4,565 bases of DNA, from assembly GCF_003334335.1 (NCBI RefSeq), contig NZ_QOWQ01000078.1; one strand, written 5' to 3'. The notes beneath the pieces are model-generated. The model saw nothing but the letters and a program-made list of their open reading frames with translations, had not been told where the DNA came from and did no database searches. Of the stretch, positions 1,794 through 4,178 are shown one piece after another. Both the position numbers and the translations under genes were made by a program. Numbering within the stretch: the stretch's first letter is position 1; the number at the start of each line of letters is the position of its first letter. The DNA is from Escherichia coli. Its GTDB lineage: Bacteria; Pseudomonadota; Gammaproteobacteria; Enterobacterales; Enterobacteriaceae.

Positions 1794-4178
1794 TTATTGC
1801 TTAGTAAACGGCGCGAAGATTTCGCTAAATGCGTACTTCGGTGCCTGTTCTTTAGTCAGGCCGTGGAATTCCGGAGACAGGTTAGTGCCGCCCGGCAGGT
1901 CGCGCGCGATTGACCAGATACCAACCATACCGAGATTACGCTTCTGCGCATCCTGCATGACCAGACGAGCATCAGAGAGATAGAACACCTCGCCCTGAAC
2001 GTCGTTCACGCCAACCATCGGCGTGGTACCCATCATAGCGTCAATTTCTGCATCGCTCTTATTGGGATGGAGGCCTTTCAATTGTGAATGCAGGTTGGCA
2101 ATCGCAGACGTTGCACACTTACCGTGAATGTTCTGGCCTTCGGTATTTGCAGACTGACAAATCGCGTTACCGTAGTCCATTGTCATCACGTTCACACCCG
2201 CCAGCTCAACACCTTTCGCTTTGGCATCGCTCAGGACATTCATCCCTTCCGGCGTCAGGCCAGTCGGCAGAATTGGCAAGGTGTACCAGATAGCAATATC
2301 TTTGCCTTCTGACTTCCATTTATCCTGCACTTTCTTCACAGCAAGGTTACGACGTTCAATAGATGCCTGATCCGCAACCCAGGTGCCTTCGATATCGAAG
2401 TCCAGGACTTTGAGGTTCAGGTTATCAACGATGTCATAATAATGCTGCATCAGATCGTCTACGTTCTTACAGGAAGCAGCCAGCGGAGCGTTGTTAGCAC
2501 CACCGATAGACAGCATCACATCGCCGCCAGCCTCACGCAGAGCTTTGATTTTGCTGTACTGAGCGTAATTCTGCATACCGTAAGCGGTACCCCATGTCGG
2601 CAGACAGGTGTTCGCATCTTTACTCACCACAAACGCCAGCGTGAAGTGGTTGACGTTATGATTCTTAGCCAGCGCAGCCAGATCCGGGATCGTATTCAGC
2701 GTAAAGTCGACATACGGTGCATAAACGTGTTTCGGCCACGCTTTCTTCGGCGTACCTACGCGCTCTTTGGTTCCGGTCCAGTCAACAAAAACACGCCACG
2801 GGTTGCTGTCAGAAGGAGAAACTTTCTGCACTTTACTCTGAGAAATGTAGTTCACACCGTTAAAGCGAATCAGCGTATCGCTGGCATAAAGCGTTTCTGG
2901 ATTAAACTGCGGCGCATTATTCAGCTCTTCGTTGCTATAGCTCTGAGCCTTACCTAACGGCTTCCACGGGCGGCTATTGCTACCGGTGGCGTTTTGGTTC
3001 GCCACCAGAGCAGGGTTGTCACTTTGCGTCCAGAACAGCGCTTCATAAGCCTGCCCATCAACAACAACGCGATCACCTTTCACGTACACAGTGGATGCGG
3101 ACCATGCTTTCGCCGGTTCGTATTTCTTCCACGGGTTATCGCCGCCCGGGACAAAGCCCCATGCGTCTTGATCGACAGAAGTTTTATAATGTGCATCGTT
3201 ATAATCTACGATGCTGTCCGCGCTGTACGCTTTGCTGGCCTGGAAACCATCCGCAACAATGACGCCGCCGTTATCAATTTCACAGGTAGTCGGGTTACCG
3301 TACTGACTCAATTCCGCAGCGGTAGCTGTACGCTCGAGACGCCATGGGTTATTGGAGTTTTCAGCGCTGGTACCCCGTGGGCAATCTTTAGACCCAACCC
3401 ACCAGGCGTTCTTGTAAACATTACCATTGAAAATAACATGGTAAATTTCGCTACCTTCCTGGCCGCTCCACGCTTGCAATGAGTAATCGTTAACGCTATC
3501 CGCTGGTGTTGATGGCTCGCTGTTATCCGGAGTTGGGGTCACCGGTGTTTCCGGAGTTGGATCAACCGGAGTCACAGCACCGCCATTATTATCCGGCTTA
3601 ACGGAACAGGAGCCAGGGTTACCATACTGGCTGATTTCTGTTGCCGTTGCCGCGCGAACATAACGCCATGGGTTACTGGCATCGTTTTCTTTCGCATCGC
3701 CTGGGCAATTTGCCGCGCCTACCCACCAGGCGTTCTTATAAATGCCGCCGTTATAGATAACGTACCATGTAGAAGAACCTTCCTGACCTTTCCAGGCTAC
3801 TACAGCATAGTTGTCGTTTGACTTATCAGCTGGGGCTGGCTGAACATCAGGAGCCGGTTTAACGTCCGGTGCCGGTTTCACATCCGGTGAAGGCTGTGGT
3901 GCTGAAGTACAGGACTGTGGATTACTGGTTTCTGAGATTTCCGTTGCCGTAGCGGCACGAACATAACGCCATGGGTTGCTGGCATCATTGCTTTTCGCAT
4001 CACCCGGACAGTTAGAAGAGGCTACCCACCAGGCATTTTCATAAATTTTGCCATCGAAAATAACCTGATATTTATTACCACCTTGTTGGTTATTCCATGC
4101 TTCCATTGCCAATGCTGGCAGAGCGGAACACACCAGCCCCATACCAATCATAGATTTAGTAAATATATTTAATTTCAT
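1794..4178 (-). CDS. chiA: Secreted endochitinase / lysozyme ChiA: Sec signal peptide, three N-terminal CBM5/12-like chitin-binding repeats with Pro/Thr-rich linkers, a classical chitin-binding type-3 domain, and a C-terminal GH18 (hevamine-like) catalytic domain
   Basis: 794-aa ORF. N-terminus MKLNIFTKSMIGMGLVCSALPALA↓ME is a typical signal peptide with an AxA site. Three ~65-aa modules share AW…Y.VI.NG.Y.NAWWV…CPG…NPWR…TATAAE(I/L)S…C. AWSASTVYVKGDRVVVDGQAYEALFWTQSDNP is a ChtBD3 motif. LDFDIEG (aa 592-598, DNA 2388-2402 for DFDIE) matches the GH18 catalytic D-x-D-x-E motif. The position between bfd and tufA matches E. coli chiA. Confidence 0.94.
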   Translation of the reverse strand: MKLNIFTKSMIGMGLVCSALPALAMEAWNNQQGGNKYQVIFDGKIYENAWWVASSNCPGDAKSNDASNPWRYVRAATATEISETSNPQSCTSAPQPSPDVKPAPDVKPAPDVQPAPADKSNDNYAVVAWKGQEGSSTWYVIYNGGIYKNAWWVGAANCPGDAKENDASNPWRYVRAATATEISQYGNPGSCSVKPDNNGGAVTPVDPTPETPVTPTPDNSEPSTPADSVNDYSLQAWSGQEGSEIYHVIFNGNVYKNAWWVGSKDCPRGTSAENSNNPWRLERTATAAELSQYGNPTTCEIDNGGVIVADGFQASKAYSADSIVDYNDAHYKTSVDQDAWGFVPGGDNPWKKYEPAKAWSASTVYVKGDRVVVDGQAYEALFWTQSDNPALVANQNATGSNSRPWKPLGKAQSYSNEELNNAPQFNPETLYASDTLIRFNGVNYISQSKVQKVSPSDSNPWRVFVDWTGTKERVGTPKKAWPKHVYAPYVDFTLNTIPDLAALAKNHNVNHFTLAFVVSKDANTCLPTWGTAYGMQNYAQYSKIKALREAGGDVMLSIGGANNAPLAASCKNVDDLMQHYYDIVDNLNLKVLDFDIEGTWVADQASIERRNLAVKKVQDKWKSEGKDIAIWYTLPILPTGLTPEGMNVLSDAKAKGVELAGVNVMTMDYGNAICQSANTEGQNIHGKCATSAIANLHSQLKGLHPNKSDAEIDAMMGTTPMVGVNDVQGEVFYLSDARLVMQDAQKRNLGMVGIWSIARDLPGGTNLSPEFHGLTKEQAPKYAFSEIFAPFTKQ
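3282..3488 (-). repeat. chiA: chiA intragenic repeat 3 (chitin-binding module 3, aa 231-299)
   Basis: Same module architecture (AWSGQEG…NAWWV…CP…NPWR…TATAAELS…C), more divergent than modules 1 and 2. Confidence 0.7.
3606..3809 (-). repeat. chiA: chiA intragenic repeat 2 (chitin-binding module 2, aa 124-191)
   Basis: Shares the identical peptide NCPGDAK.NDASNPWRYVRAATATEIS with module 1; roughly 75-80% DNA identity with module 1 by eye. Confidence 0.75.
3834..3887 (-). repeat. chiA: Imperfect 18-bp tandem repeat ×3 encoding the (PDVKPA)2-PDVQPA linker between ChiA modules 1 and 2
   Basis: + strand units TGCCGGTTTCACATCCGG (3870-3887), AGCCGGTTTAACGTCCGG (3852-3869) and GGCTGGCTGAACATCAGG (3834-3851); codon-by-codon translation gives the PDVKPA repeats. 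Confidence 0.8.
3909..4103 (-). repeat. chiA: chiA intragenic repeat 1 (chitin-binding module 1, aa 26-90)
   Basis: DNA and protein self-similarity to modules 2 and 3; e.g. CGAACATAACGCCATGGGTT is shared between modules 1 and 2. Confidence 0.75.
4107..4178 (-). other. chiA: ChiA Sec signal peptide coding segment (aa 1-24)
   Basis: Basic N-terminus (K2, K8), hydrophobic core IGMGLVCSALPALA, and an ALA cleavage motif. Confidence 0.7.

What the first reader, a model, noticed from the sequence alone, without database searches (positions are those of the whole stretch)
1797..2741. ChiA catalytic domain is a hevamine-like GH18 with motif LDFDIEG, consistent with dual chitinase/lysozyme activity
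The catalytic signature here is DFDIE (aa 593-597), resembling plant class III chitinase/lysozyme (hevamine-type) rather than the typical bacterial GH18 DGxDxDWE. This fits the bifunctional chitinase/lysozyme annotation of E. coli ChiA and suggests peptidoglycan as a possible substrate.
Basis: partly seen in the sequence, partly recalled or inferred. Interest (0 to 1): 0.3.

Follow-up and report, generated by a model that had tools for sequence, protein, structure and literature searches.

The report
E. coli ChiA GH18 catalytic domain
This is the catalytic domain of the known E. coli secreted chitinase ChiA; the DFDIE motif is real and holds the catalytic glutamate, but the domain belongs to the Pyrococcus ChiA-like branch of family 18, not the hevamine branch, and the motif says nothing about lysozyme activity.

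Summary
The minus-strand ORF 1794-4178 (794 aa) is E. coli chiA. Its residues 593-597 read DFDIE (window 2388-2402), and 1797-2741 is the C-terminal GH18 domain.

Glu597 aligns with the catalytic Glu of P. furiosus ChiA (mutated to Ala in 3A4W) and with hevamine Glu127. It sits at the end of strand beta-4 in a confident (beta/alpha)8 model that has no chitinase insertion domain.

The domain is not specifically hevamine-like:
- Hevamine is not significant by profile search (E 0.32).

[ILV]DFD[IV]EG is the signature of this large branch, which looks like bacterial GH18 "subfamily C". That branch has DxDxE only, with the first Asp of DxxDxDxE lost (K590 here).

The motif does not predict peptidoglycan cleavage. 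"Bifunctional chitinase/lysozyme" is a database name, the papers reached call ChiA an endochitinase, and none tested lysozyme activity. This is already known and of low interest.

Two side observations: a rare 103-aa repeat deletion in ChiA, and a truncated gspM.

The parts
1794..4178 (-). chiA coding sequence (794 aa plus stop). It is a short allele of the 897-aa E. coli ChiA.
   Evidence: ORF list. It is identical to WP_000773156.1 apart from an in-frame 103-aa gap. The locus order gspO-bfr-bfd-chiA-tuf matches RefSeq genomes.
4107..4178 (-). Putative Sec signal peptide, aa 1-24 (MKLNIFTKSMIGMGLVCSALPALA).
   Evidence: Read from the sequence. The assignment is an inference from the hydrophobic core and the A-x-A end; no predictor was run.
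3279..4097 (-). Three N-terminal repeat modules (starting at about aa 28, 129 and 237, each with a W..Q[QE]G...NAWWV...NPWR core), separated by Pro-rich linkers. The reference allele has four.
   Evidence: Motif scan. The first module matches the N-terminus of Yersinia entomophaga Chi2 (6ogd_C residues 24-95, E 1.6e-13).
3006..3107 (-). CBM5/12 chitin-binding module, aa 358-391.
   Evidence: Pfam CBM_5_12, E 1.3e-7. PDB matches 2d49 chitinase C and 6z40.
1797..2741 (-). GH18 catalytic domain, aa 480-794. It is a (beta/alpha)8 barrel without a chitinase insertion domain and belongs to the PF-ChiA-like clade.
2499..2510 (-). SIGG (aa 557-560), the SxGG motif on strand beta-3.
   Evidence: G80 and G81 are invariant and S78 is at least 90% conserved in alignment A1. 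Coordinates.
2388..2402 (-). DFDIE (aa 593-597), the DxDxE catalytic motif on strand beta-4. E597 is the predicted general acid/base.
   Evidence: It aligns to DFDIE of 2dsk and to DFDIA of the mutant 3a4w. The model has a strand at domain residues 112-117 with the Glu at residue 118. Conservation.
2409..2411 (-). K590, the position of the first Asp of the canonical DxxDxDxE motif. The Asp is absent here.
   Evidence: In the family this column is T 50, N 12, R 11, K 10 and so on, and never predominantly D. The same feature is reported for Streptomyces SsChi18C (PMC6545677).
2169..2186 (-). MTMDYG (aa 665-670) at the strand beta-6 position. It is the presumed counterpart of the GH18 Met/Tyr/Asp active-site segment.
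   Evidence: M186, M188 and G191 are at least 90% conserved. The model has a strand at residues 182-186. The functional assignment is inferred and not tested geometrically.
1899..1916 (-). WSIARD (aa 755-760). The Trp, Ser, Arg and Asp are invariant near the end of the barrel.
   Evidence: W276, S277, R280 and D281 are invariant in A1. They are likely counterparts of the substrate-binding Trp-257 and Arg-261 of SsChi18C (PMC6545677). That correspondence is inferred.

Best explanation
Window 1797-2741 (minus strand) encodes the catalytic domain of E. coli ChiA. ChiA is a signal-peptide-bearing, multi-module chitinase that the neighbouring Gsp type II secretion system exports.

The domain is a GH18 (beta/alpha)8 barrel of the Pyrococcus furiosus ChiA / Streptomyces Chi1 type. 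Streptomyces papers call this type bacterial GH18 'subfamily C'. It has no alpha+beta insertion domain, it carries SxGG on beta-3, and it has a shortened catalytic motif [ILV]DFD[IV]EG on beta-4.

By homology (inferred, not shown here), Glu597 (Glu700 in the 897-aa reference) is the general acid/base, and Asp595 and Asp593 position the substrate's N-acetyl group. That group attacks C1 to give an oxazolinium intermediate, which is the retaining, substrate-assisted mechanism of GH18. This mechanism requires a GlcNAc in subsite -1.

The expected activity is non-processive endo-hydrolysis of chitin and chito-oligosaccharides. The CBM5/12 module and the N-terminal repeats would target the enzyme to GlcNAc-containing polymers.

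Sharing DFDIE with hevamine reflects common GH18 ancestry and conservation of the active-site strand. It does not reflect a specific class III relationship or a lysozyme function.
For: - Motif and domain location.
- Pfam GH18 and CBM5/12.
- Closest solved relatives by sequence: 9buf (1.8e-46) and 2dsk (6.4e-38), with DFDIE aligned to DFDIE and to the Glu-to-Ala catalytic-site mutant 3a4w.
- Profile search: 9buf 4.8e-110 and 2dsk 2e-78.
- AF2 model: pLDDT 96.8, eight beta/alpha units, motif on strand 112-117, and only about 12 residues between beta-7 and alpha-7.
- Family-wide conservation of the motif, and absence of the first Asp.
- The family is large: 2886 representative clusters at E <= 1e-3.
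- Literature: an active, non-processive Streptomyces enzyme modelled on PfChiA has DXDXE only and is placed in subfamily C (PMC6545677). E. coli ChiA is listed as an endochitinase of 897 aa, citing Francetic 2000 (PMC3950696).
Against: No enzymology was or could be done here. The primary paper on E. coli ChiA (Francetic et al. 2000) was not readable, so 'endochitinase' rests on citations of it.

I had no access to model coordinates, so the position of E597 relative to a docked substrate is inferred from alignment and secondary structure, not measured.

The equivalence with 'subfamily C' is inferred from shared templates and shared motif features. It was not tested by aligning SsChi18C.

AIEC papers attribute mucin and CHI3L1 interactions to ChiA, so chitin may not be the physiologically relevant substrate in the gut.
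Confidence: 0.85

Rival explanations
1. One reading: the domain is a hevamine-type (class III) chitinase/lysozyme that also hydrolyses peptidoglycan, so ChiA is truly bifunctional.
For: - The DFDIE pentapeptide is identical to that of hevamine.
- Like hevamine, the barrel lacks the insertion domain (PMC2805709).
- RefSeq names the 897-aa protein 'bifunctional chitinase/lysozyme'.
- hhalign links the beta-2 to beta-4 region to hevamine (probability 64%, E 6.5e-5).
Against: - The same motif is the signature of a whole clade whose solved members are deposited as chitinases.
- Pfam finds no peptidoglycan-binding module or lysozyme-family domain, only CBM5/12 and GH18.
- No NCBIfam model supports the name. 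The 794-aa allele of the same protein is named only 'carbohydrate-binding protein', which shows that the label is rule-based.
- No paper found in the searches tests lysozyme activity.
- Hevamine's own 'lysozyme' activity is cleavage of GlcNAc-beta-1,4-MurNAc, not muramidase action (Bokma 1997, quoted).
- From my own reasoning: ChiA passes through the periplasm of its producer, so a potent activity on E. coli murein would be self-damaging.
Confidence: 0.07
2. The catalytic domain acts mainly on host glycoconjugates (GlcNAc/LacNAc-containing mucin O-glycans or N-glycans, as an endo-beta-N-acetylglucosaminidase-like enzyme). Alternatively, the protein acts mainly as an adhesin, with chitin only a surrogate substrate. 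This is not exclusive of the best explanation, because the chemistry at E597 would be the same.
For: - AIEC work reports that ChiA binds CHI3L1 and mucin and that it contributes to mucus degradation and colonisation (PMC11486038).
- The Citrobacter type II secretion system is linked to mucin use, and several of its predicted substrates carry GH18 domains (PMC10841016).
Against: - The nearest characterised relatives are chitinases.
- The protein carries CBM5/12 chitin-binding modules.
- The mucinase idea in PMC11486038 is presented there as a hypothesis, and a catalytic-site mutant was not reported in the passages read.
- ENGase similarity is only at the general GH18 level.
Confidence: 0.25

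Closest known systems
Pyrococcus furiosus chitinase ChiA, catalytic domain AD2 (PDB 2DSK; mutants 3A4W, 3A4X, 3AFB)
   Same: - About 31-35% identity over the whole domain (aa 481-792 against chain residues 7-293).
- The LDFDIE motif is identical.
- Same barrel without an insertion domain.
   Different: - It is an archaeal, hyperthermophilic enzyme with different accessory modules.
- E. coli ChiA has an extra Cys-flanked loop (CQSANTEGQNIHGKC, aa 674-688) that is gapped in the 2dsk and 9buf alignments.
Streptomyces venezuelae Chitinase 1 / 'Exochitinase 1' hydrolase domain (PDB 9BUF), and Streptomyces sp. F-3 SsChi18C (GH18 'subfamily C')
   Same: - DXDXE without the first Asp, Trp/Arg substrate contacts late in the barrel, and non-processive endo action reported for SsChi18C (PMC6545677).
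   Different: - These are actinobacterial enzymes with CBM2-type modules rather than CBM5/12 plus the enterobacterial N-terminal repeats.
- I did not align SsChi18C directly.
Hevamine (Hevea brasiliensis class III chitinase; PDB 1HVQ, 2HVM)
   Same: - GH18 barrel without an insertion domain.
- SxGG motif and an identical DFDIE, with E597 aligned to E127.
   Different: - Hevamine keeps the first Asp (DGIDFDIE), whereas ChiA has K590.
- Hevamine is a single-domain, 273-aa plant vacuolar protein. Its peptidoglycan activity has no tested counterpart here.
Bacterial subfamily A and B GH18 chitinases (Serratia marcescens ChiA/ChiB with insertion domain; ChiC1 4AXN, Lactococcus 3IAN, Moritella Chi60 without)
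   Different: - 14-17% identity.
- They have the full DxxDxDxE motif (from my own knowledge: DGVDIDWE in subfamily A).
- Subfamily A has the alpha+beta insertion domain that ChiA lacks.

Membership tests
Glycoside hydrolase family 18 (CAZy GH18 / Pfam PF00704) | Significant match to the family profile | tested here: met
   Glyco_hydro_18 at aa 506-702, E 8.6e-10, score 39.2. The match covers model positions 20-199 of 317, so it is partial.
Glycoside hydrolase family 18 (CAZy GH18 / Pfam PF00704) | (beta/alpha)8 barrel fold | tested here: met
   AF2 model with pLDDT 96.8 and pTM 0.93, showing alternating strands and helices. All top fold matches are GH18 structures.
Glycoside hydrolase family 18 (CAZy GH18 / Pfam PF00704) | DxDxE catalytic motif on strand beta-4, with the Glu at the strand's C-terminal end | tested here: met
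   D593, D595 and E597. The model has a strand at domain residues 112-117 and the Glu at 118. The motif aligns to the PF-ChiA motif and its E-to-A mutant.
Glycoside hydrolase family 18 (CAZy GH18 / Pfam PF00704) | Retaining, substrate-assisted hydrolysis of GlcNAc-beta-1,4 linkages | not testable with these tools
   This needs enzyme assays. Papers cite Francetic 2000 for endochitinase activity.
PF-ChiA-like clade / bacterial GH18 'subfamily C' | Full-length, high-scoring similarity to PF-ChiA AD2 and Streptomyces Chi1 catalytic domains | tested here: met
   [not shown]
PF-ChiA-like clade / bacterial GH18 'subfamily C' | Catalytic motif reduced to DxDxE, with the first Asp of DxxDxDxE replaced | tested here: met
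   K590 in the window protein. The family column is mostly T, N, R or K. The feature is described for SsChi18C in PMC6545677.
PF-ChiA-like clade / bacterial GH18 'subfamily C' | No alpha+beta chitinase insertion domain between beta-7 and alpha-7 | tested here: met
   The model has only about 12 residues between strand 237-243 and helix 255-268.
PF-ChiA-like clade / bacterial GH18 'subfamily C' | Conserved Trp and Arg late in the barrel that contact subsites -1 and -2 | tested here: inconclusive
   W276 and R280 (WSIARD, aa 755-760) are invariant in A1. Their equivalence to SsChi18C Trp-257 and Arg-261 was not checked by alignment or by coordinates.
Plant class III chitinase (hevamine type) | Significant sequence similarity to class III proteins | tested here: not met
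   No class III hit with phmmer at E <= 10. The profile gives hevamine E 0.32, PPL-2 0.67 and ScCTS1 0.2. hhalign probability is only 64%, over 105 columns.
Plant class III chitinase (hevamine type) | Class III structures are the nearest structural neighbours | tested here: not met
   [not shown]
Plant class III chitinase (hevamine type) | Catalytic signature DG[IF]DFDIE | tested here: inconclusive
   DFDIE is identical, but the upstream D-G is K-V in ChiA.
Lysozyme (EC 3.2.1.17) / peptidoglycan hydrolase | A lysozyme-family catalytic domain or a peptidoglycan-binding module | tested here: not met
   Pfam reports only GH18 and CBM5/12. NCBIfam reports nothing.
Lysozyme (EC 3.2.1.17) / peptidoglycan hydrolase | Hydrolysis of peptidoglycan glycan strands | not testable with these tools

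The most novel reading that the evidence does not exclude
Once secreted by the type II system, the subfamily C GH18 domain of ChiA might have a real side activity on peptidoglycan. It would cleave GlcNAc-beta-1,4-MurNAc as hevamine does, making it an endo-N-acetylglucosaminidase rather than a muramidase. That would give enterobacteria a secreted weapon against competitors, and the old database label would be accidentally half right.
Probability: 0.07. Interest if true: 0.45.

Novelty: already known. Interest (0 to 1): 0.08.

Why it matters
It matters little for discovery. chiA is a characterised E. coli gene, and the GH18 assignment and catalytic Glu follow from solved homologues.

The useful outcome is a correction of labels. 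The domain should be described as PF-ChiA-like (GH18 subfamily C), not as hevamine-like. The widely propagated name 'bifunctional chitinase/lysozyme' should be treated as an unverified annotation. This is relevant because ChiA is now studied as a virulence factor of Crohn's-associated E. coli, where the true substrate (chitin, mucin glycans or host glycoproteins) is an open question.

Tried and rejected
- **NCBIfam:** a scan of the whole protein gave no family.
- **Exact look-up:** the 794-aa protein is not among about 15 billion proteins.
- **Papers not held:** I tried to read Francetic et al. EMBO J 2000 (PMC305903), Nakamura et al. 2007 on 2DSK (PMC2330115) and Low et al. 2013 (PMC3755095). 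As a result I could not check primary statements on E. coli ChiA enzymology or on the PF-ChiA/hevamine superposition.
- **Literature searches:** searches for a lysozyme assay of E. coli ChiA returned nothing relevant. One search failed on syntax.
- **Chance motif:** I considered that DFDIE might be a chance motif and rejected this because of family-wide conservation.
- **Plus-strand ORFs:** I considered that the ORFs inside the region (2084-2293, 2088-2312, 2442-2957) might be genes. They lie antisense to a strongly supported gene and I did not pursue them.
- **Further family profiles:** I ran no further search on building class III and subfamily A/B profiles for formal profile-profile ranking. 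The PDB profile search and two fold searches already agreed.
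Full report
**What is in the window.** The window carries, in order:
- gspO (177-854, plus strand)
- bfr (883-1359, minus strand)
- bfd (1431-1625, minus strand)
- a 794-codon ORF on the minus strand (1794-4178)
- the 3' end of tuf

This is the order found in E. coli chromosomes, where the long ORF is annotated chiA. The finding's coordinates 1797-2741 are residues 480-794 of that ORF. DFDIE occurs once, at residues 593-597 (window 2388-2402), in the context KVLDFDIEG. The numbering belongs to this allele only. Compared with the usual 897-aa ChiA (WP_000773156.1), the window protein is identical except that reference residues 48-150 are missing. The catalytic Glu is therefore E700 in the reference numbering.

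**Family assignment.**
- Pfam places Glyco_hydro_18 at residues 506-702 (E 8.6e-10) and a CBM5/12 module at 358-391. NCBIfam has no model for the protein.
- Against solved structures, the domain matches end to end the hydrolase domain of Streptomyces venezuelae Chitinase 1 (9BUF, E 1.8e-46). It also matches the catalytic domain AD2 of Pyrococcus furiosus chitinase (2DSK, E 6.4e-38).
- In those alignments DFDIE lies on DFDIE. In the 'catalytic site mutant' entry 3A4W the aligned Glu is Ala.
- A search of 1.84 billion representative proteins found 2886 related clusters. Across 102 full-length domains (the window's plus 101 from these) the motif columns are almost invariant: D 101, F 98, D 99, I 86 with V 13, E 99, G 97. 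The position of the first Asp of the canonical DxxDxDxE is T, N, R or K, and is K590 here.
- DFDIEG is therefore the signature of this clade, not an oddity of E. coli.

**Structure.** An AlphaFold2 model built on a 43-sequence alignment (A1) is very confident (pLDDT 96.8, pTM 0.93). It shows a (beta/alpha)8 barrel. The motif lies on the fourth strand (domain residues 112-117) with the Glu at its C-terminal end. Only about a dozen residues separate beta-7 from alpha-7, so there is no chitinase insertion domain.
- Foldseek agrees. TM is 0.87-0.94 for 9BUF and 2DSK. Bacterial chitinases without an insertion domain come next. The first class III plant protein is at rank 21, and hevamine is not in the top 50.

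**Direct comparison with hevamine.** DFDIE there is residues 123-127.
- phmmer with the ChiA domain finds no class III protein even at E <= 10.
- The family profile gives hevamine E 0.32, against 7e-12 and 8e-10 for the Lactococcus and Serratia ChiC-type enzymes.
- hhalign gives 64% probability over 105 columns and aligns LDFDIEG with IDFDIEH.

So E597 is homologous to hevamine E127, as it is to the Glu of every GH18. The relationship is at family level only. The domain is therefore not closer to those either. It forms its own branch.

**Literature.**
- A structural survey lists 2DSK with hevamine, ScCTS1 and PPL2 as endochitinases with a shallow cleft because they lack the insertion domain (PMC2805709). 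That is the sense in which 'hevamine-like' is defensible.
- A study of Streptomyces sp. F-3 places an enzyme modelled on PfChiA 3A4W in GH18 subfamily C. It notes that the enzyme has DXDXE only, with the first Asp replaced by Thr. It points to Trp-257 and Arg-261 as substrate contacts and finds the enzyme active and non-processive (PMC6545677).
- The invariant WSxxRD of the ChiA family (aa 755-760) probably corresponds to those contacts. That correspondence is my inference.
- E. coli ChiA is cited as an endochitinase of 897 aa, repressed by H-NS (PMC3950696; PMC9795070).
- In adherent-invasive strains ChiA is discussed as a mucus- and CHI3L1-interacting virulence factor (PMC11486038).

**The lysozyme inference.** I found nothing that supports it beyond the name.
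- 'Bifunctional chitinase/lysozyme' is the RefSeq product name of the 897-aa protein. The 794-aa allele of the same protein in strain EC0430 is named merely 'carbohydrate-binding protein', so the name depends on a naming rule and not on evidence.
- No peptidoglycan-binding or lysozyme-type domain is present.
- No paper testing the activity turned up, and the primary papers were not available to me.
- The motif cannot discriminate, because the chitinases of the PF-ChiA clade carry it too.
- By established GH18 chemistry the -1 sugar must carry an N-acetyl group that participates in catalysis. [quoted passage not shown] 1997, title quoted in PMC10841016).
- A weak activity of that kind in ChiA is not excluded. 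I give it about 7%.

**Mechanism proposed.**
- Shown here: the domain is GH18, of the PF-ChiA type, without an insertion domain, and with SxGG, DxDxE, MxMDY and WSxxRD conserved.
- Inferred by homology: E597 protonates the glycosidic oxygen. D595, backed by D593, orients and polarises the -1 acetamido group, which forms an oxazolinium intermediate. Water activated by E597 completes a retaining hydrolysis. The open cleft gives endo, non-processive action on chitin and chito-oligosaccharides. The CBM5/12 module and the N-terminal repeats provide binding.
- Inferred: export needs the signal peptide (aa 1-24). From papers whose titles are cited, export also needs the adjacent Gsp type II system.

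**Verdict.** The motif observation is confirmed. The GH18 assignment and the catalytic Glu are supported. 'Hevamine-like' should be replaced by 'PF-ChiA-like / subfamily C'. The lysozyme implication is unsupported. All of this is existing knowledge about a known gene, so novelty is 'already known' and interest is low.

**Side observations.**
- The 309-bp in-frame deletion fuses N-terminal repeats 1 and 2 across a 16-nt identity (gene nt 140-155, window 4024-4039). The junction is found in only 5 of 5426 complete E. coli genomes. The exact protein is absent from the 15-billion-protein collection.
- The first 77 bases of the window match sequence that, in strain E89, lies between an IS100-family istA gene and a truncated gspM. 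The window lacks a further 37 bp of gspM relative to that strain. The secretion system that exports ChiA is therefore probably defective in the source genome.

Noticed in passing
window 4024-4039 (junction); affects chiA 1794-4178: The chiA allele is 794 aa instead of 897. An in-frame 309-bp deletion removes reference residues 48-150 and fuses N-terminal repeats 1 and 2 across a 16-nt identity in the NAWWV-coding segment. The junction occurs as one piece in only 5 of 5426 complete E. coli genomes. There PGAP calls the protein 'carbohydrate-binding protein' rather than chiA. The exact protein is not in the 15-billion-protein collection. It could be a real rare allele or a repeat collapse in assembly.
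   Followed up: partly
window 1-176: Bases 1-77 match a sequence present in many copies per genome and on plasmids. In strain E89 this sequence sits between an IS100-family (IS21-like) istA gene and a truncated gspM pseudogene. It is probably an insertion-sequence terminus. Relative to E89 the window lacks a further 37 bp of gspM (L001 578-614), and no complete genome shows this exact junction. The Gsp secretion operon that exports ChiA is therefore probably disrupted in the source strain.
   Followed up: partly
window 3969-4106 (aa 25-95 of ChiA) and the two further repeats to about 3279: The N-terminal repeat module (W..QQGG...NAWWV...NPWR...) matches the N-terminus of Yersinia entomophaga toxin-complex chitinase Chi2 (6ogd_C residues 24-95, E 1.6e-13). 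Pfam barely recognises these modules (CBM_5_12 E 9.7 at aa 248-262).
   Followed up: no
window 2115-2159 (aa 674-688): A Cys-flanked loop, CQSANTEGQNIHGKC, lies after strand beta-6 of the catalytic domain. It is present in the close enterobacterial relatives and is largely gapped in the alignments to 9BUF and 2DSK. It may be a disulfide-stapled, clade-specific loop near the active-site face.
   Followed up: no
window 3828-3884 (aa 99-117): A Pro-rich linker with a short tandem peptide repeat (PDVKPAPDVKPAPDVQPAP) lies between the first two remaining repeat modules. Such repeats may favour further length variation.
   Followed up: no
whole chiA gene; annotation: No NCBIfam model matches ChiA, yet RefSeq names the 897-aa form 'bifunctional chitinase/lysozyme' and the 794-aa form 'carbohydrate-binding protein'. 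The functional label therefore appears to follow a sequence- and length-specific naming rule rather than family evidence. chiA junction-region DNA is found in 3159 of 5426 complete genomes.
   Followed up: partly
window 2084-2957, plus strand: Three mechanical ORFs (69, 74 and 171 aa) lie antisense to the catalytic-domain coding region. Nothing suggests they are genes.
   Followed up: no
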